From a virus (taxonomy: Duplodnaviria; Heunggongvirae; Uroviricota; Caudoviricetes): DNA of 46,844 bases. Below the pieces are notes generated by a model, which had not been told where the DNA came from, searched no databases, and saw only the letters and a program-made list of their open reading frames with translations. Positions 3,321-9,510 of this stretch are shown here, one piece after another (position 1 is the first letter of the stretch; every line of letters starts with the position of its first letter). The DNA lies in the IMG/VR virus record IMGVR_UViG_2534681940_000028. One strand, given 5' to 3'. A program made the translations under genes and the position numbers.

Positions 3321-4130
3321 ATGAATAATCTGATGGTCATTGATGGTATTGAAGTTCGTCGTGATGCTTATGGGCGTTACAGCCTGAACGATCTGCATCG
3401 CGCAGCAGTAGCATCTGGTGCAAATGCCAGAACCAAGGAGCCGGGAAAGTTTCTTTCCAGCCAACAAACTGTTGAGCTTGTTCATGAATTGACCAACACC
3501 CAGAATTTGGGTGTTGACCCGGTGAGTGTGATTCATGGGGGAAATGAACGGGGAACGTATGTCTGCAAGGAACTGGTGTATGCCTATGCAATGTGGATCA
3601 GCCCGTCATTCCATCTGAAGGTGATCCGTACTTTCGATATGGTAACCAGCGCACCGGAAAAATTATCCGGACAGGCTGCTGACAAGATGCAGGCTGGCGT
3701 GATCCTGCTGGACTTTATGCGCCGGGAGTTAAACCTGTCTAACTCTTCAGTGCTTGGTGCCTGTCAGAAACTCCAGGAGGCTGTTGGCTTACCGAATCTG
3801 GCACCGCGCTATGCCATTGATGCTCCTGCTGACGCGCCTGATGGCTCAAGCCGCCCCACGCTATCATTGAGTGCACTGCTGAAGCAGTATGGTATCCGCC
3901 TGACAGCTAATCAGGCATATCACCAGATGGCGAAGCTGGGGATCGTTGAACAACGTGAACGATACAGCCGCACTGCGATTAACAACATCAAAAAATTCTG
4001 GTCGCTGACAGCGAAAGGCTGCATGTTCGGCAAGAACATCACCAGTCCCGCAAATCCGCGCGAGACGCAGCCGCATTTCTTCGAATCCCGATTCCCTGAG
4101 CTGTTAAAGCTGCTCGATACCGTTCATTGA
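3321..4130 (+). CDS. KilA-N domain protein (antirepressor-like)
   Basis: 269 aa; N-terminal KilA-N-like region; RBS GAGGAG upstream. Confidence 0.6.
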   Translation: MNNLMVIDGIEVRRDAYGRYSLNDLHRAAVASGANARTKEPGKFLSSQQTVELVHELTNTQNLGVDPVSVIHGGNERGTYVCKELVYAYAMWISPSFHLKVIRTFDMVTSAPEKLSGQAADKMQAGVILLDFMRRELNLSNSSVLGACQKLQEAVGLPNLAPRYAIDAPADAPDGSSRPTLSLSALLKQYGIRLTANQAYHQMAKLGIVEQRERYSRTAINNIKKFWSLTAKGCMFGKNITSPANPRETQPHFFESRFPELLKLLDTVH

Positions 4131-4131
4131 G

Positions 4132-5127
4132 GTGACCGTGAGAGCACTACTGACTCCTGAAATTGCCCCGCGTATGGGGATCGTATTGTTCAGGCCAGGT
4201 TCAGAGCTGATGCCCCTGTTTATGCAGGGGCGTGTCCTGCTGGAGCCTGAGCCGGAACGTTATTCATCTTTCGCCAGTGGTGCCGTTCCGGCGGCATCAC
4301 AACCGCTGGCGGATGATCCTGCCGTTCGGGCCGTGTTCCGCAATGAGGCAGTGATCCGTCGTGCTGGTGGCGTGGAATGTCTTGAAAGCTGGTTACTTCG
4401 TGAAAAAGGCTGCCAGTGGCCTCATTCCGACTGGCACAGCGAGAACATGACCACAATGCGACACGCTCCGGGTGCAATCCGTCTGTGCTGGCACTGCGAT
4501 AACCAGCTGCGCGATCAGTTCACGGAACGGCTGGAATCAATGGCAACGGATAACTGTGCCCGCTGGGTGTTGTCTGTTGTGCGTCGGGATCTCGGTTTTG
4601 ATGACAGTCACGTTGTGACAATGCCGGAACTGTGCTGGTGGCTGATTCGTAATGACCTGGCGGATGCCTTACCGGAAAGTGCAGCCCGTAAGGCACTTAG
4701 ATTACCGAAGCCTGTTGTGCCGTCTGTTACCCGGGAAAGTGACCTTGTGCCTTCGGTTCCTGCCACCAGCATCATCCAGGATAAAGCGAAAAAGGTGCTG
4801 GCGCTGAAAGTGGATCCTGAGTCGCCGGAGTCTTTTATGTTACGCCCAAAACGTCGCCGCTGGGTTAATGAAAAGTACACGCGCTGGGTTAAGACACAGC
4901 CGTGTGCATGTTGTGGAAAGCCTGCTGATGATCCCCACCACCTGATAGGTCACGGTCAGGGAGGAATGGGTACAAAAGCGCATGACCTCTTTGTGTTGCC
5001 TTTGTGCAGAAAGCATCACGACGAGCTGCATGCGGATACCGTGGCATTTGAAGAGAAGTATGGCTCCCAGCTGGAGCTGATATTTCGTTTTATCGATCGT
5101 GCGCTGGCAATAGGCGTACTGGCGTAA
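4132..5127 (+). CDS. DUF968-like nin-region protein with C-terminal Cys/His (HNH-like) motif
   Basis: 331 aa; C-terminus CACCGKPADDPHHLIGHGQGGMGTKAHDLFVLPLCRKHHDELH; GTG start assumed. Confidence 0.5.
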   Translation: MTVRALLTPEIAPRMGIVLFRPGSELMPLFMQGRVLLEPEPERYSSFASGAVPAASQPLADDPAVRAVFRNEAVIRRAGGVECLESWLLREKGCQWPHSDWHSENMTTMRHAPGAIRLCWHCDNQLRDQFTERLESMATDNCARWVLSVVRRDLGFDDSHVVTMPELCWWLIRNDLADALPESAARKALRLPKPVVPSVTRESDLVPSVPATSIIQDKAKKVLALKVDPESPESFMLRPKRRRWVNEKYTRWVKTQPCACCGKPADDPHHLIGHGQGGMGTKAHDLFVLPLCRKHHDELHADTVAFEEKYGSQLELIFRFIDRALAIGVLA

Positions 5128-5140
5128 GTGGAGAACGAGC

Positions 5141-5893
5141 ATGAACTTTGAAGCCTTACCGAAATATTACTCCCCAAAATCTCCAAAATTGAGCGATGAC
5201 GCACCGGCGACAGGCTCTGGTGGTTTAACAATTACGGATGTAATGGCTGCGCAGGGGATGGTGCAGTCGAAAGCACCGCTTGGGTTTGCCTTATTCCTGG
5301 CAAAAGTTGGTGTTCAGGATCCTCAGTTTGCGATTGAAGGTCTGCTCAATTACGCGATGGCACTGGATAACCCGACATTGAACAAATTGAGTGAAGAAAC
5401 CCGGCTACAGATCATTCCTTACCTTGTGAATTTTGCCTTTGCTGATTATTCCAGGTCTGCGGCAAGTAAGGCTCGCTGTGAGCATTGTGCTGGTACTGGA
5501 TTTCATGATGTATTGCGCGAGGTGGTGAAACACTCCAGAAGCGGGGAATCTGTTATCAAGGAAGAGTGGGTGAAGGAACTGTGTCAGCATTGTCATGGTA
5601 AGGGAGAAGTCAGCACAGCGTGCAGAGGGTGTAAGGGTAAAGGTATTGTCCTGGATGAAAAAAGAACCAGGCTTCATGGCACGCCTGTTTATAAGGTTTG
5701 TGGGCGTTGCAATGGAAACCGGTTTAGCCGTTTACCAACCACACTGGCGCGGCTTCATGTCCAGAAGCTGGTACCAGACCTGACGGATTATCAGTGGTAC
5801 AAAGGATATGCAGATGTCATTGATAAACTGGTTACAAAGTGCTGGCAGGAAGAAGCGTATGCTGAGACACAATTGAGGAAAGTGACGAGATGA
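5141..5893 (+). CDS. late-gene antitermination protein Q-like
   Basis: 250 aa with paired CxxC motifs (CEHCAGTG, CQHCHGKG, CRGCKGKG, CGRCNG); located immediately upstream of lysis region. Confidence 0.7.
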   Translation: MNFEALPKYYSPKSPKLSDDAPATGSGGLTITDVMAAQGMVQSKAPLGFALFLAKVGVQDPQFAIEGLLNYAMALDNPTLNKLSEETRLQIIPYLVNFAFADYSRSAASKARCEHCAGTGFHDVLREVVKHSRSGESVIKEEWVKELCQHCHGKGEVSTACRGCKGKGIVLDEKRTRLHGTPVYKVCGRCNGNRFSRLPTTLARLHVQKLVPDLTDYQWYKGYADVIDKLVTKCWQEEAYAETQLRKVTR

Positions 5894-5924
5894 ATGATTT
5901 TCGACGAAAATGGCGACATGATGC

Positions 5925-5952
5925 TTGCATTTTTCAAAAAAATGGATAATAT
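5925..5952 (+). promoter_or_regulatory. candidate late promoter (PR'-like) downstream of Q
   Basis: TTGCAT (5925-5930), 16-nt spacer, TAATAT (5947-5952); followed by terminator at 5997-6026. Confidence 0.4.
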
Positions 5953-5996
5953 TTTCTCAATGATAGGCATTGTGTGTCCGGCTTTAATAAAAAGTA

Positions 5997-6026
5997 GAAA
6001 ACCCGCTGATGTGCGGGTTTTTTTTC
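5997..6026 (+). terminator. rho-independent terminator (tR'-like)
   Basis: Stem CCCGC (6002-6006) / GCGGG (6013-6017), loop TGATGT, then T8 run. Confidence 0.6.
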
Positions 6027-6046
6027 GGAATTTTAGATGTGTGGCA

Positions 6047-6076
6047 TTGAAATGGTATTCGGCGAGTAGGTAGAAT
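6047..6076 (+). promoter_or_regulatory. candidate sigma70 promoter of the moron
   Basis: TTGAAA (6047-6052), 18-nt spacer, TAGAAT (6071-6076); about 28 nt upstream of ATG 6104. Confidence 0.4.
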
Positions 6077-6103
6077 TTAAACTTTCGTCTCGTCTGGATC
6101 GAC

Positions 6104-6646
6104 ATGATGTTTCAAGCCTTCCAAACAGCAGTATTTAAAAATGTTGCAGAGTATTTAAAAGGGCGCTTCCCTCATAAGTCGTTAGGGCTCGTATATGCCG
6201 ACGAGCTGGTACTAAAAGATATGGAGTTCCTCAAGGCTAACAATAAACTGCGGTGGGATCCCGGACTAAAGTCGCGAGTGTTTATGGATATGATGGAAGA
6301 ACACCCGATAAAACTAGTTGTTTATTATCGTGGGGAGCCTATTGGATTTGCATTTGGGTGTTACTGTAAGCCGAAAAATGCGGTGCATATTTGCTGGATG
6401 GAAAAACGTAATGATGCACATGAAGACCTAGACCATCAGATGCTTGGTATCGTTTTGGATTGCTTCTCTGCATATGCACGATTTCTGAACCTTCAGGGTG
6501 AATCTATTGATTCGATAGCTTTAGTTAGTCCAGTTGATGGGGCAATAAGATACTATACTGAAAGTGGTTTTGAGTACATTGCTGATTACGAACGAGGTGG
6601 TTGCGCAATGGTGCTTAGGAGCGTTTTACCTAACCAATCAGTGTGA
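6104..6646 (+). CDS. moron-encoded protein, possible GNAT-fold acyltransferase
   Basis: 180 aa, visibly AT-rich; C-terminal pattern LGIVLDCFSAYARFLNLQGESIDSIALVSPVDGAIRYYTESGFEYI resembles GNAT core; own promoter and downstream terminator. Confidence 0.45.
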   Translation: MMFQAFQTAVFKNVAEYLKGRFPHKSLGLVYADELVLKDMEFLKANNKLRWDPGLKSRVFMDMMEEHPIKLVVYYRGEPIGFAFGCYCKPKNAVHICWMEKRNDAHEDLDHQMLGIVLDCFSAYARFLNLQGESIDSIALVSPVDGAIRYYTESGFEYIADYERGGCAMVLRSVLPNQSV

Positions 6647-6837
6647 GTTAGATTCTTAATTTCTCCAGAATCATTACAAAAGTATTGAAAACCTCTTTTA
6701 GTTGATGCAATCTGGATCCACACAAAGCACACACAAAATGTACTACGCTTTACTTTATACATCTTCAGGTAACAAACTTTGTTGCCTTTATGCTTCAAAG
6801 AAGCAACTACAGCTTAGTGCTGAACAAGGGGATTTTT

Positions 6838-7023
6838 ATGAAACATCATGAGCAGATAGAGATTGAGGCAGCTAAAGTCGTCGCCGAACTCTTTGCTGGC
6901 AATGCATCTCCAATGGAAACCTTTGGTATTACATGGAGTCAAACTCAGATGTTAGAGCGTAAGAATCCTGGTGTAGTGATCAAACTAGTACCGGATGACG
7001 GTAAAAAACTTGCGTATTGCTGA
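6838..7023 (+). CDS. small hypothetical protein (61 aa)
   Basis: AAGGGGAT at 6826-6833 before ATG 6838; ORF-track start 6790 is upstream in-frame. Confidence 0.35.
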   Translation: MKHHEQIEIEAAKVVAELFAGNASPMETFGITWSQTQMLERKNPGVVIKLVPDDGKKLAYC

Positions 7024-7082
7024 TAATTTTTAAAGATTTTTTCAGCTAGAGAATCGATTATTTTACTATAAATCGCGAAGGA

Positions 7083-7108
7083 GCCCCACATATTGTGGGG
7101 CTTTTTGT
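7083..7108 (+). terminator. rho-independent terminator closing the moron
   Basis: Stem GCCCCACA / TGTGGGGC with TATT loop, followed by TTTTTGTTT. Confidence 0.6.
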
Positions 7109-7280
7109 TTCATCTTAGTTAGCCGTTATTCACATTCACTACTTTGCTACTTATCCACTGTAAAAATAAATTGTGAATTATTTTGTGGCTTATTGTTAGT
7201 GTTCTATCAATTTTGTGTGTGATATTCCATTGGCGTGGTTATTATCTGTGCATCGCACTTAAATGTATAAAGCTCACTAG

Positions 7281-7595
7281 TTGAGACAATCCTACCACCA
7301 GTTGGTGGTATCTCATGATTCACTGAATTGCAAATCTTCTGAATTGCTGGATGAGTTTAAATCTCACCGGCGCTATTTCTCCGTATCAGTCTCCGTGCCT
7401 TATACCGATGTCAGGACGCATAAGCCCGTTCAGTTCTACCCGGGTAAACATCCGTGCGAGAAACCGGCGGATATGCTCAGGCAAATAATCAATGCCAGTA
7501 GTCGACCTGGTGATCTGGTTGCTGATTTCTTTATGGGATTCGGTTCCACAATAAAAGCAGCAATGGCGCTGGGGCGTCGGGCGTTAGGTGTTTAA
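7281..7595 (+). pseudogene. DNA methyltransferase (N4/N6 family) C-terminal fragment
   Basis: Contains HPCEKP and FFMGFGST motifs typical of the C-terminal half of permuted amino-methyltransferases; no N-terminal half; in-frame TAA at 7593 followed by 19 further sense codons. Confidence 0.5.
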
Positions 7596-7731
7596 CTTGA
7601 GTCAGAGCGGTTTAATCAGACGGTGAAAGAGGTAAGTGAACTGGTGGGGAAATAATTCTGGTGGCCACGTTGCGTGGCCTTTTTATTTCCAACACAGCAC
7701 CCGCAAATATCGCGAGGTGAGAGATGACGAA

Positions 7732-8067
7732 ATGCCTCATAACCCAAATACCTGGCCGGACTGGCTGGAGTTGTTTCAGAGCTGGTGGCGTGGAGACACA
7801 CCGCTGGGTGCAGTGATTATGTCGATCGTTATGGCTGGTTTGCGCATCGCCTATTTTGGCGGTGGTGGTGGCTGGAAGCGAAAAACGCTCGAGATTTTGC
7901 TATGTGGCGCTCTGACGCTGACCTTTGCATCCGCTCTTGAGTATGTCGGATGGCCTAAATCACTTTCTGTTGCCATTGGTGGTGGGGTGGGGCTGATCGG
8001 TGTCGATGCTATTCGTGGGGCTGCAATGCGAGTAATCGGTAACAAATTTGGTGGCTCTAAGGAGTAA
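7732..8067 (+). CDS. holin (class I, lambda S-like topology)
   Basis: 111 aa from ATG 7732; hydrophobic segments (AVIMSIVMAGLRIAYF, ILLCGALTLTFASAL, SVAIGGGVGLIGV) and charged C-terminus; directly upstream of endolysin. Confidence 0.65.
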   Translation: MPHNPNTWPDWLELFQSWWRGDTPLGAVIMSIVMAGLRIAYFGGGGGWKRKTLEILLCGALTLTFASALEYVGWPKSLSVAIGGGVGLIGVDAIRGAAMRVIGNKFGGSKE

Positions 8068-9036: not shown

Positions 9037-9330
9037 TTATTGTGAGCAATACACCCGCGCTTCCAGCGGAGTATAAATGCCTAAAGTAATAAAACCGAGC
9101 AATCCATTTACGAATGTTTGCTGGGTTTCTGTTTTAACCACATTTTCTGCGCCGCCACAAATTTTGGCTGCATCAACAGTTTTCTCCTGTCCAATTCCCG
9201 AAACGAAGAAATGATGGGTGATGGTTTCCTTTGGTGTTACTGCTGTCGGTTTGTTTCCAACAGTAAACGTCTGTTGAGCACATCCTGTAATAAGCATTGC
9301 CAGAGCGGCAGAAAATAACATTTTTTTCAT
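9037..9330 (-). CDS. bor: Bor lipoprotein (serum-resistance protein)
   Basis: 97 aa from ATG 9330; MKKMLFSAALAMLITGCAQQTF lipobox; matches lambda Bor as I recall it; SD AGGA upstream. Confidence 0.85.
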   Translation of the reverse strand: MKKMLFSAALAMLITGCAQQTFTVGNKPTAVTPKETITHHFFVSGIGQEKTVDAAKICGGAENVVKTETQQTFVNGLLGFITLGIYTPLEARVYCSQ

Positions 9331-9510
9331 CTTATTATCCTGCATTGTTAAAAACGGCAGAATCCTATGTGACAACAATTAAACGATAGTTAAATGGATT
9401 GATGAAAATTAAAACTATATAGGTGTACGGTCAGACTATTGGAGGTAGTCAGGATTTGAATGTCAGTCTGTTGTCGGCATTCTGGCAATGCAATTTGGAT
9501 AAAGCGGGGA

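What the first reader, a model, noticed from the sequence alone, without database searches (positions are those of the whole stretch)
5894..7330. Self-contained AT-rich moron between Q and the lysis genes
Between the Q gene and the holin lies an AT-rich unit with its own promoter (TTGAAA-18-TAGAAT), a 180-aa protein with GNAT-like core features, a 61-aa ORF and a strong terminator. It is preceded by a PR'-like promoter plus short-leader terminator typical of Q-dependent late control. This Q-S interval is the classic site for lysogenic-conversion and defence cargo in lambdoid phages. A GNAT-type enzyme plus a small partner could be a toxin-antitoxin-like or modification function that is uncharacterized here.
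Basis: partly seen in the sequence, partly recalled or inferred. Interest (0 to 1): 0.55.

Follow-up and report, generated by a model that had tools for sequence, protein, structure and literature searches.

The report
Mobile GNAT-plus-partner prophage moron
Between the late-gene activator Q and the lysis genes of this E. coli O157:H7 prophage sits a portable two-gene cassette with its own promoter-like site and terminator, encoding a divergent GNAT-fold enzyme and a 61-residue partner protein, both uncharacterised; it occupies accessory slots of many prophages, including a known anti-phage defence hotspot, so it is a testable candidate for a new protective system.

Summary
Window 6025-7285 is an AT-rich (39% vs 49% GC) cargo block placed right after the tR' terminator of the Q module. 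It has replaced the 5' two-thirds of a DNA methylase gene. It holds a promoter-like site (6047-6076), ORF180 (6104-6646), a 191-nt spacer, ORF61 (6838-7023) and a strong terminator (7078-7106).

The Q/PR'/tR' block occurs in about 2230 of 5426 complete E. coli genomes, the cargo in only 98. It is an insertion, not phage core.

ORF61 is a small helical protein with no known fold. The two genes are paired in every intact locus, across Enterobacterales and one Psychrosphaera. They co-diverge (r=0.95) under strong purifying selection (dN/dS about 0.05).

The cassette sits in many prophage slots, including the P2 gpA-gpQ defence hotspot. The spacer is itself under selection.

Function is untested. 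Best guess: a lysogen-expressed protective or exclusion module with a GNAT effector and a small controlling partner.

The parts
5141..5893 (+). Q antiterminator gene (context, not part of the moron)
   Evidence: Pfam PF03589, E 8e-53. Annotated as antitermination protein.
5925..5964 (+). Candidate PR' late promoter: TTGCAT 5925-5930, 16 nt, TAATAT 5947-5952. A -10-like AATGAT follows at 5959-5964, a possible sigma-dependent pause element.
   Evidence: Read from the sequence. Lies in the block conserved with mEp460 and about 2230 E. coli genomes. Below the threshold of the promoter scan. The pause-element analogy to lambda PR' comes from memory. Inferred, not shown.
5997..6024 (+). tR'-like intrinsic terminator ending the short PR' leader. 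Also the left junction of the cargo.
   Evidence: dG -15.9 kcal/mol, z -3.8. Homology to mEp460 and to Qin-type Q blocks stops at 6021-6025. Equivalent hairpins with different loop or stem bases occur in L003 and L047.
6047..6076 (+). P1, the moron's own sigma-70-like promoter: TTGAAA-18-TAGAAT
   Evidence: 10 of 12 matches. Same hexamers, 18-nt spacing and offset (-57 to -61 from the start codon) with divergent spacers in L047, L030, L048, L003, L049, L032, L033, L016 and L005. Weaker versions in L034, L058 and L055. Not mapped experimentally.
6104..6646 (+). ORF180, a divergent GNAT-fold protein (WP_021519681, phrog_11949). The likely true start is ATG 6107.
6647..6837 (+). Conserved non-coding spacer. 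Contains P2-like TTGAAA (6685-6690), 17 nt, CAATCT (6708-6713); a covarying hairpin at 6767-6787; and a second hairpin just upstream of the ORF61 Shine-Dalgarno sequence.
   Evidence: Identity to relatives is 0.53-0.81, against 0.32-0.58 at 4-fold degenerate sites of the flanking ORFs. The P2-like site is conserved. The hairpin has compensatory changes in 4 of 8 pairs. Other clades have a true intrinsic terminator at this position.
6838..7023 (+). ORF61, the small helical partner protein (WP_000680348, phrog_11292)
   Evidence: Always follows ORF180 homologues. The family has 43 clusters, all 49-85 aa, with no Pfam domains on record. AF2 gives three helices plus a disordered tail, pLDDT 76. 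No PDB fold match. dN/dS 0.04-0.05.
7078..7106 (+). Intrinsic terminator closing the moron
   Evidence: 13-bp stem with 6 GC pairs, followed by a T-run. dG -20.2 kcal/mol, z -4.7. Non-homologous terminators sit within about 150 nt (most within 100 nt) after ORF61 in nearly all other loci.
7107..7285 (.). AT-rich non-coding trailer of the cargo block
   Evidence: Found only in the same 98 E. coli genomes as the module. GC 33% for 7024-7285.
7286..7595 (+). 5'-truncated N6/N4 DNA methylase pseudogene (right junction; collateral damage, not part of the module)
   Evidence: Pfam PF01555 matches profile positions 156-209 only. PGAP note: 'missing N-terminus'. Homology to mEp460 resumes at 7286. An intact 350-aa gene follows the module in L047.

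Best explanation
Window 6025-7285 is a horizontally mobile, self-contained 'moron'. Its core is a strictly conserved unit with two genes and a conserved spacer:
- P1 promoter
- ORF180, a divergent GNAT-fold acyltransferase-like enzyme
- a conserved structured spacer with its own promoter-like site and a hairpin or terminator
- ORF61, a small helical partner protein
- an intrinsic terminator

Shown:
- It is cargo, not phage core.
- The two proteins are real, co-inherited and under strong purifying selection.
- ORF180 has a GNAT fold.
- The unit carries its own transcription signals wherever it lands.

Inferred:
- In the lysogen, P1 expresses ORF180 independently of the repressed late operon.
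- During lytic growth, Q-modified RNA polymerase starting at PR' reads through tR' and through the cassette's terminators to reach S-R-Rz.
- ORF61 is transcribed at least partly on its own, from the spacer, so the ratio of the two proteins is regulated.

Most likely mechanism (inference, unproven):
- ORF180 is the effector. It transfers an acyl group to a cellular or phage macromolecule. The conserved Tyr151 and Glu100 would act as catalytic residues. The atypical, invariant E-K-R-x-D-A-H-x-D loop would hold the donor.
- ORF61 is its cognate controller: an inhibitor, antitoxin-like protein or specificity subunit.
- Together they give the lysogen protection against superinfecting or competing phages, as an exclusion or abortive-infection-type accessory system.
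For: Insertion status:
- The Q+PR'+tR' block is in about 2230 genomes, the cargo in 98, all at least 99% identical.
- The junctions lie at 6024/6025 and 7285/7286 relative to mEp460.
- The cargo is AT-rich.

Mobility. The same cassette occurs in these settings:
- after Q genes matching different Pfam models (PF03589, PF06530, DUF1133/PF06576)
- before an intact methylase and after a methylase
- after the lysis cassette, next to a pyocin gene
- between tail genes K and I/J
- at integrase-proximal prophage ends
- in the gpA-gpQ slot of two P2-like prophages, which Rousset et al. 2022 (PMC9122126, read) define as an anti-phage hotspot

Defence neighbours:
- A putAbiC/AbiP-like gene is adjacent in L055. 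The PADLOC candidate PDC-S49 is adjacent in L059.
- PMC13586616 reports that 6 of 8 randomly chosen unknown cargoes from the main defence loci of P4 satellites protected against phages, and that unknown genes in P2 and P4 hotspots are often predicted to be antiviral.

Own transcription signals:
- P1 is conserved at a fixed offset, and a terminator follows ORF61 in nearly every locus.

Obligate pairing:
- 54 of 54 loci plus 6 distant loci carry both genes.
- Pairwise identities of the two proteins correlate at r=0.95. dN/dS is 0.04-0.05 for both.

Fold:
-.
- The motif-B-like Y150-Y151-x-x-x-G-F156 and E100/R102 are invariant or nearly so.

Spacer under selection, with a conserved promoter-like site:
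-.
Against: - No experiment or transcript data bears on this module. Promoter and function are inferred from sequence alone.
- Neither protein hits any of 5027 PADLOC models. The literature searches found nothing on this pair.
- 'Guilt by location' is weak. The same Q-to-lysis slot holds a Tad2-like anti-defence gene in Xenorhabdus, and holds toxins, methylases and bacteriocins elsewhere.
- The CoA P-loop (Q/R-x-x-G-x-G/A) is replaced by R-N-D-A-H-E, with several invariant acidic residues. Acetyl-CoA use is therefore uncertain, and the protein could be a non-catalytic binder.
- ORF61's model is only moderately confident (pTM 0.37). No complex prediction could be run.
- In several clades a terminator lies downstream of the P2-like site. 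The transcription logic of the spacer is not understood.
Confidence: 0.4

Rival explanations
1. A classical type II toxin-antitoxin addiction module. ORF180 would be a TacT/AtaT-like GNAT toxin that acetylates charged tRNA. ORF61 would be its proteic antitoxin. The main role would be stabilising the prophage rather than defence.
For: - The pair is obligate and co-diverges.
- A toxin-first gene order with a separate promoter-like site for the small gene recalls mqsRA, higBA and hicAB (from memory).
- One locus keeps only a decayed ORF61 remnant without ORF180. No locus keeps ORF180 alone.
Against: - The toxins score no better than RimI, NatD and many other GNATs.
- The known GNAT toxin-antitoxin pairs place an RHH antitoxin upstream in a tight operon (from memory). 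Here the small gene is downstream and 80-226 nt away, often beyond a terminator.
- ORF61 is modelled as all-helical, with no RHH or HTH Pfam hit.
- The P-loop is non-canonical.
Confidence: 0.15
2. A counter-defence or anti-host function that serves the phage itself. ORF180 would be a GNAT that inactivates a host immune protein or signal by acylation, as the anti-CRISPR AcrVA5 does. ORF61 would be an Aca-like regulator or cofactor.
For: - The cassette is carried by an active temperate phage (vB_EcoM-689R6, 99.8% identical).
- It is read through by Q-dependent late transcription (inferred from position and strand).
- In Xenorhabdus the same slot carries a Tad2-like anti-defence gene next to an ORF61 remnant.
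- There is precedent for GNAT-fold anti-defence proteins (AcrVA5, from memory).
Against: - Counter-defence genes are normally expressed early. Here the cassette lies in the late region and has its own promoter and terminator, which suggests expression in the lysogen.
- ORF61 has no HTH signature, unlike Aca proteins.
- The cassette lies in the P2 hotspot and next to Abi-like and PDC genes.
Confidence: 0.15
3. A lysogenic-conversion resistance or detoxification enzyme. ORF180 would acylate a small molecule (antibiotic, microcin, aminoacyl-nucleotide or toxic metabolite) to benefit the host. ORF61 would be an accessory or chaperone protein.
For: - One locus lies next to a chloramphenicol acetyltransferase gene. 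Another lies next to an S-type pyocin and immunity pair.
- The moron architecture is typical of host-benefit genes such as bor/iss, which is also present in this window.
Against: - A small-molecule enzyme has no obvious need for a strictly co-evolving 60-aa partner with its own regulated expression.
- Distribution is rare and patchy and confined to prophages.
- The invariant acidic/His loop is unlike those enzymes.
Confidence: 0.12
4. ORF61 is the substrate. ORF180 would acylate or otherwise modify the small protein or peptide, which would then act as a signal, bacteriocin-like factor or modified effector (RiPP-like logic).
For: - The ORF61 core (residues about 10-50) is conserved. The C-terminal tail is variable and modelled as disordered, and often ends in Cys. 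This recalls the leader/core layout of modified peptides.
- The pairing is obligate.
Against: - The cassette has no exporter, protease or further tailoring genes. Its neighbours differ from locus to locus.
- The C-terminal Cys is lost in distant members.
- ORF61 has no signal peptide or hydrophobic segment (GRAVY -0.22).
Confidence: 0.05

Closest known systems
Morons of lambdoid phages (Juhala/Hendrix concept; e.g. bor/iss, lom, and stx in the Q-S interval)
   Same: - An extra transcription unit with its own promoter and terminator.
- Deviant base composition.
- Present in some but not all closely related phages.
- Located just downstream of tR', so it is also read through under Q control.
   Different: - The cargo is a conserved two-gene unit with a selected spacer, of an undescribed family, rather than a single known conversion gene.
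- The same unit also occupies tail-gene, integrase-proximal and P2 hotspot sites.
GNAT/RHH type II toxin-antitoxin systems (TacAT, AtaRT, KacAT, ItaRT)
   Same: - A GNAT-fold protein of about 175 aa, paired with a small cognate protein on mobile elements.
- A conserved Tyr in the alpha4 'YxxxGF' motif.
   Different: - Gene order is reversed.
- A spacer of about 80-226 nt with its own signals separates the genes, instead of a tight operon.
- The partner is all-helical, without an RHH domain.
- The P-loop is non-canonical.
- There is no sequence-level relationship.
Cargo of the P2 gpA-gpQ hotspot (old, tin and other anti-phage systems; Rousset et al. 2022, PMC9122126)
   Same: Distant homologous pairs (about 32% identity) occupy exactly this slot in two P2-like prophages. 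One lies beside an AbiC/AbiP-like gene.
   Different: - No member of this family has been tested or listed as a defence system.
- The window's copy is in a lambdoid Q-S interval, not in P2.
AcrVA5-type GNAT anti-CRISPR with acr-aca operon logic (from memory)
   Same: A small GNAT-fold enzyme on prophages, followed by a small regulatory-size gene.
   Different: - ORF61 shows no HTH.
- The genes are not in a tight operon.
- The cassette has a late-region or hotspot location and moron signals.

Membership tests
Moron (autonomous accessory transcription unit in a phage genome) | Present in some members of a phage group and absent from close relatives at the same site | tested here: met
   The Q+PR'+tR' block is in about 2230 of 5426 E. 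coli genomes, the cargo in 98. mEp460 carries other genes between the same junctions.
Moron (autonomous accessory transcription unit in a phage genome) | Own promoter upstream | tested here: inconclusive
   TTGAAA-18-TAGAAT matches 10 of 12 positions. It is conserved at -57 to -61 across at least 13 distinct loci with divergent spacers. No transcript mapping was possible.
Moron (autonomous accessory transcription unit in a phage genome) | Own intrinsic terminator downstream | tested here: met
   7078-7106, dG -20.2 kcal/mol, z -4.7. Non-homologous terminators follow ORF61 in nearly all loci.
Moron (autonomous accessory transcription unit in a phage genome) | Base composition different from the surrounding phage genes | tested here: met
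   GC 39.2% for 6025-7285, against 48.8% for the window, 47.8% for Q and 50.7% for the lysis genes.
GNAT superfamily (GCN5-related N-acetyltransferases) | Core fold b1-a1-a2-b2-b3-b4-a3-b5-a4-b6(-b7) | tested here: met
GNAT superfamily (GCN5-related N-acetyltransferases) | Motif A pyrophosphate-binding loop Q/R-x-x-G-x-G/A between b4 and a3 | tested here: not met
   The loop reads R102-N-D-A105-H-E107. E100, K101, R102, D104, A105, H106 and D108 are invariant, and there is no Gly.
GNAT superfamily (GCN5-related N-acetyltransferases) | Sequence-profile membership (Pfam Acetyltransf_* models) | tested here: not met
   No hit for the window protein. 1 of 27 family members hits PF00583, at E 0.11. 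There is no PDB sequence relative.
GNAT superfamily (GCN5-related N-acetyltransferases) | Acyl-CoA binding and acyl transfer | not testable with these tools
   The only support is the indirect conservation of Y150, Y151 and F156 (alpha4 'YxxxGF') and of E100.
GNAT/RHH type II toxin-antitoxin (TacAT/AtaRT/KacAT/ItaRT) | Antitoxin gene upstream of the toxin in a tightly coupled bicistronic operon | tested here: not met
   The small gene is downstream. The gap is 147-226 nt in 54 loci, and 80-155 nt in four of the distant loci. Many clades have an internal terminator.
GNAT/RHH type II toxin-antitoxin (TacAT/AtaRT/KacAT/ItaRT) | Antitoxin with an N-terminal ribbon-helix-helix DNA-binding domain | tested here: not met
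   The ORF61 model is all-helical (H3-18, H25-28, H33-42) with no N-terminal strand. It has no Pfam or NCBIfam family and no PDB fold match.
GNAT/RHH type II toxin-antitoxin (TacAT/AtaRT/KacAT/ItaRT) | Toxicity of the GNAT and its neutralisation by the partner | not testable with these tools
   Needs expression experiments.
Catalogued anti-phage defence systems (PADLOC-DB 2.0) | Match to a model of a known or candidate defence protein | tested here: not met
   No hit for ORF180, for ORF61 or for the distant ORF180 homologues. Only neighbouring genes hit: AbiP-like and PDC-S49.
acr-aca anti-defence operon | Downstream small HTH repressor (Aca) in one operon with the effector | tested here: not met
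   ORF61 has no HTH family hit. The genes are separated by a spacer with its own signals.

The most novel reading that the evidence does not exclude
The cassette is a previously unrecognised three-part anti-phage or exclusion system of prophages. It would consist of a divergent GNAT-fold effector whose donor-binding loop has been remodelled (invariant EKRxDAHxD), a selected regulatory RNA/promoter spacer, and a 60-aa helical controller. It would move as a unit between lambdoid Q-S intervals, tail regions, prophage ends and the P2 gpA-gpQ defence hotspot.
Probability: 0.3. Interest if true: 0.7.

Novelty: new variant of a known kind. Interest (0 to 1): 0.5.

Why it matters
The Q-S interval of lambdoid prophages in pathogenic E. 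coli is where Shiga toxin and other conversion genes sit, so any conserved cargo there may affect lysogen fitness.

This cassette encodes two protein families with no functional annotation; PHROGs lists both only as families of unknown function. It has clear signatures of function:
- strong purifying selection on both genes
- obligate pairing
- its own transcription signals
- a spacer under selection

It recurs in slots known to hold anti-phage systems. It is small (about 1.1 kb), which makes it easy to clone and test.

If it protects against phages, it would add a GNAT-based effector with an unusual donor loop to the defence repertoire, and an example of a system with a separately regulated small partner. 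If it is a toxin-antitoxin or anti-defence module, it would still define a new family.

Tried and rejected
- Sequence-family searches for ORF180 and ORF61 returned only PHROG families of unknown function. Libraries tried: Pfam, NCBIfam, PADLOC, PHROGs and PDB sequences, with single sequences and with profiles.
- The afdb50 Foldseek library was not available.
- The ORF61 model found no PDB fold.
- A single-sequence search of 1.84 billion representative proteins found only 25 relatives. The family could not be bridged by sequence to an annotated GNAT family.
- Literature searches found no description of this pair. Terms included the accession and GNAT/prophage/defence keywords; DefensePredictor and the P2/P4 hotspot papers were also checked.
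- The one plasmid hit (CP044351) is an indel-ridden copy of the same prophage, 94.6% identical over 5.5 kb with frameshifts everywhere. It is not an independent context or a pseudogene case.
- A possible small ORF starting at the conserved ATGCAATCT in the spacer was rejected. By reading the spacer sequences printed, its length varies from 2 to 48 codons, its frame is not kept, and it has no Shine-Dalgarno sequence.
- The 59-aa ORF at 5894-6073 was rejected as spurious.
- Rfam gives only sub-threshold hits. The best relevant one is isrK-like, 19.7 bits against a gathering score of 50, over the PR' leader.
- The exact transcription logic of the spacer could not be settled from sequence. The open question is whether the P2-like site lies before or after the internal terminator.
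- A 'conserved core gene of the phage family' reading was rejected.
Full report
**Where the window comes from.** The region 5850-7650 is 100% identical to a chromosomal prophage of E. coli O157:H7 strains such as FRIK944. It is 99.8% identical to the isolated temperate phage vB_EcoM-689R6. The local gene order is:

| Feature | Coordinates |
|---|---|
| KilA-N protein | 3321-4130 |
| DUF968 protein | 4132-5127 |
| Q antiterminator (PF03589) | 5141-5893 |
| the finding | see below |
| 5'-truncated N6/N4 DNA methylase pseudogene | 7281-7595 |
| lambda-family holin, lysozyme, Rz | up to 9005 |
| iss/bor, minus strand | 9037-9378 |

**Check of the observation.**
- A hairpin with an 8-T run at 5997-6024 folds at -15.9 kcal/mol (z -3.8). 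The hairpin at 7078-7106 folds at -20.2 kcal/mol (z -4.7).
- The promoter scan finds TTGAAA-18-TAGAAT at 6047-6076, 10 of 12 matches. By count this is not above the shuffled background (2 found, 4.3 expected). Its credibility rests on conservation, described below.
- ORF180 is 6104-6646. ORF61 is 6838-7023.
- GC content is 39.2% for 6025-7285 against 48.8% for the window.
- A PR' candidate precedes tR': TTGCAT 5925-5930, 16 nt, TAATAT 5947-5952, followed by a -10-like AATGAT at 5959-5964. It lies in the block conserved with other Q modules. It is below the scan threshold, so I treat it as plausible only. The analogy to the lambda PR' pause element is from memory.

**Boundaries and insertion status.**
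- Against phage mEp460, which has the same Q type, homology runs 5100-6024 and resumes at 7286-7719. In between, mEp460 carries two other small genes and an intact 350-aa methylase.
- The Q+PR'+tR' block (query 5500-6103) is found in about 2230 of 5426 complete E. coli genomes, including Qin ydfT of K-12. Homology always ends at about 6021-6025, at the end of tR'.
- The cargo is in only 98 genomes, single copy, all at least 99% identical. It always comes with the same AT-rich trailer and the truncated methylase. It is in 1 of 50,697 phage records.
- The unit is therefore an insertion spanning 6025-7285. The stretch 5894-6024 belongs to the Q module.
- In metagenomic relative L047, the cassette lies between tR' and an intact methylase. 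The window's copy therefore also carries a deletion of the 5' part of the methylase.

**The large protein.**
- ORF180 has no hit in Pfam, NCBIfam, PADLOC or PDB sequences. Its only match is PHROG 11949, of unknown function.
- Its family is small. It has 28 clusters at 90% identity and 25 representatives at 50% identity out of 1.84 billion proteins.
- An AlphaFold model built on 27 homologues has pLDDT 87 and pTM 0.85. Its element order is helix, then b1-a1-a2-b2-b3-b4-a3-b5-a4-b6-b7, which is the GNAT topology plus an N-terminal helix.
- The alignment shows an invariant block W98-M-E-K-R-N-D-A-H-E-D-L-D-H-Q112. It spans the end of b4 and the start of a3. Canonical GNATs carry the Q/R-x-x-G-x-G/A pyrophosphate loop at this position. 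Here it reads R-N-D-A-H-E, with several acidic residues.
- The alpha4 motif Y150-Y151-x-x-x-G-F156 is kept. Its spacing matches the catalytic Tyr motif of RimI and TacT-type enzymes. That comparison is my own reading, from memory of those enzymes.
- So the fold is GNAT. Catalysis is plausible, but the acyl donor is uncertain.

**The small protein and the pairing.**
- ORF61 (PHROG 11292, unknown function) belongs to a family of 43 clusters, all 49-85 aa, none with a Pfam domain on record.
- Its model has three helices (3-18, 25-28, 33-42) and a low-confidence tail, pLDDT 76 and pTM 0.37. It has no PDB fold match.
- The conserved core is roughly [VL][VA]xxLFxxGxxPMExFGxxWxxxxxLExxxP.
- In all 54 loci retrieved from genomes, viral contigs and metagenomes, an ORF61 homologue lies 147-226 nt downstream of the ORF180 homologue on the same strand.
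- The same holds for six more distant loci with 28-38% identity (L055, L058, L059, L061, L063, L065). One of these small genes was not called by the gene finder and was found by ORF listing.
- Pairwise identities of the two proteins across 20 distinct loci correlate at r=0.95. Both genes have dN/dS of 0.04-0.05 at dS of about 1 or more.
- One Xenorhabdus locus keeps only a truncated ORF61 remnant, next to a Tad2-like gene. No locus keeps ORF180 alone.

**The cassette is an autonomous, mobile unit.** The homologous pair occurs in these settings:
- after Q genes matching different Pfam models (PF03589, PF06530, DUF1133/PF06576)
- before or after a methylase
- between the lysis cassette and an S-type pyocin/immunity pair in Pragia
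- between tail genes K and I/J in Erwinia
- at integrase-proximal prophage ends next to mtfA, in Citrobacter and others; this was the most frequently recorded variant among those looked up
- beside HicB and CAT genes in Photorhabdus
- in two P2-like prophages, in the slot between replication gene A and portal gene Q

Rousset et al. 2022 describe that P2 slot as the old/tin anti-phage hotspot (PMC9122126). In one of the two P2-like prophages the neighbour is putAbiC/AbiP-like. In a Psychrosphaera locus the neighbour is the PADLOC candidate PDC-S49.

Transcription signals travel with the cassette.
- A promoter-like site of the form TTGA(A/G)N-18-TAnnnT sits 57-61 nt upstream of the start codon in the window and in at least 12 other distinct loci. 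The spacer sequences between the hexamers differ.
- A non-homologous intrinsic terminator follows ORF61 within about 150 nt (most within 100 nt) in nearly every locus.
- DNA homology between the window and its 81-83% identical relatives runs from the tR' hairpin to four bases past the ORF61 stop codon.

**A third element: the spacer.**
- The 191-nt spacer is more conserved than neutral sites. Identity to six relatives is 0.81, 0.77, 0.58, 0.53, 0.68 and 0.56. The corresponding values at 4-fold degenerate sites of the flanking genes are 0.57, 0.58, 0.34, 0.42, 0.40 and 0.32.
- It contains a nearly invariant TTGAAA-17-CAATCT (6685-6713). Analogous promoter-like sites occur in other clades.
- It contains a hairpin at 6767-6787 with compensatory changes in 4 of 8 pairs.
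- At the hairpin's position, the Erwinia, Photorhabdus, Pragia and Limnobaculum clades and several metagenomic clades carry a clear intrinsic terminator.
- This suggests that the two genes are regulated separately. One possibility is that ORF180 transcripts stop in the spacer and ORF61 depends on its own promoter or on read-through. The order of the signals is not consistent enough to decide.
- A conserved small ORF in the spacer was ruled out by reading the sequences.

**Interpretation.**
- Shown: a mobile, selected cassette of two genes plus a conserved spacer, with a GNAT-fold protein and an obligate small partner. It is inserted after tR' and carries its own promoter-like site and terminator.
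- Inferred: expression from P1 in the lysogen; read-through under Q during lytic growth; and a role for ORF61 as controller of ORF180.
- My preferred function is a lysogen-protective (exclusion or abortive-infection-type) system with a toxin-antitoxin-like internal logic. It rests on four points: location, including the P2 hotspot and its defence neighbours; the moron signals; the strict pairing; and the report that 6 of 8 randomly chosen unknown cargoes from P4 defence loci protected against phages, with unknown P2/P4 hotspot genes often predicted antiviral (PMC13586616).
- This is circumstantial, and I give it 0.4.
- Anti-defence, small-molecule detoxification, classical addiction and peptide modification remain open. 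The report's rival section lists what would separate them.

**Comparison with known systems.**
- The unit meets the structural definition of a moron on the features that could be tested.
- It has the GNAT fold but fails the canonical motif A and all sequence models.
- It fails the defining organisation of GNAT/RHH toxin-antitoxin systems: order, coupling and RHH domain.
- It matches no catalogued defence or Aca model.
- I therefore file it as a new, undescribed protein-pair family carried in a known kind of element. I do not file it as a member of TacAT-like systems.

**Verdict.** The novelty lies in the uncharacterised, strictly paired family, its conserved spacer and its recurrent placement in accessory and defence slots. 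Function is unproven. Interest is moderate (0.5), because it gives a compact, directly testable candidate.

Noticed in passing
window 6647-6837: The non-coding spacer between ORF180 and ORF61 is more conserved than 4-fold degenerate sites of the flanking genes. It carries a near-invariant TTGAAA-17-CAATCT and a covarying hairpin. Other clades have a true terminator at the hairpin position.
   Followed up: partly
window 7281-7595: A 5'-truncated N6/N4 DNA methylase pseudogene. The gene is intact (350 aa) in mEp460 and in L047, where the cassette sits upstream of it. The window copy therefore lost about 750 bp of the gene along with acquiring the AT-rich trailer 7107-7285.
   Followed up: yes
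window 5930-6026: Sub-threshold Rfam hits over the PR' leader and tR' (isrK 19.7 bits, AgrB, Trp and Leu leaders). This is consistent with a short, 6S-like terminated leader RNA of about 65-70 nt. None reaches the gathering score.
   Followed up: no
window 9037-9378 (minus strand): An iss/bor lipoprotein gene (increased serum survival) lies downstream of Rz on the opposite strand. It is a second, classical moron in the same window.
   Followed up: no
window 7663-7679: A GC-rich hairpin plus T-run (GGCCACGTTGCGTGGCC TTTTTATTTC) lies between the methylase remnant and the annotated holin start (about 7732). It falls inside the longer mechanical ORF 7636-8067. It looks like another terminator that Q-modified polymerase must pass.
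   Followed up: no
L055 5686-5862 and L061 6639-6842: Distant homologues of the pair (about 32% identity) lie in the gpA-gpQ hotspot of two P2-like prophages. In L055 they sit beside a putAbiC/AbiP-like gene. The small gene in L055 was not called by the gene finder.
   Followed up: yes
L070 4211-5162 (Xenorhabdus bovienii): In this Q-to-lysis interval, a 223-aa protein with a Tad2-like (Thoeris anti-defence) domain and DUF7823 precedes a truncated, orphan ORF61 remnant. There is no ORF180 homologue in the locus.
   Followed up: partly
L010 6001-9037 (Pragia fontium): The cassette lies after the lysis genes. It is followed by an S-type pyocin (433 aa) and a putative immunity gene, upstream of the terminase genes. 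This forms a cluster of cargo genes.
   Followed up: no
L016 4115-7156 (Erwinia rhapontici): The cassette is inserted on the same strand inside the tail gene cluster, between a gpK-like (NlpC/P60+JAB) gene and the gpI/gpJ genes. This is an unusual moron site.
   Followed up: no
L060 (CP044351.1, 'plasmid' p194195_1): This 111-kb IncX4-typed plasmid record holds a copy of the same prophage region that is 94.6% identical and riddled with indels. It looks like an uncorrected long-read assembly or misassembly rather than a real plasmid-borne variant.
   Followed up: partly
L059 6581-8410 (uncultured Psychrosphaera): The most distant pair (28% identity, and lacking the EKRxDA motif) lies next to a 609-aa KAP-family NTPase that matches the PADLOC candidate system PDC-S49.
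   Followed up: no
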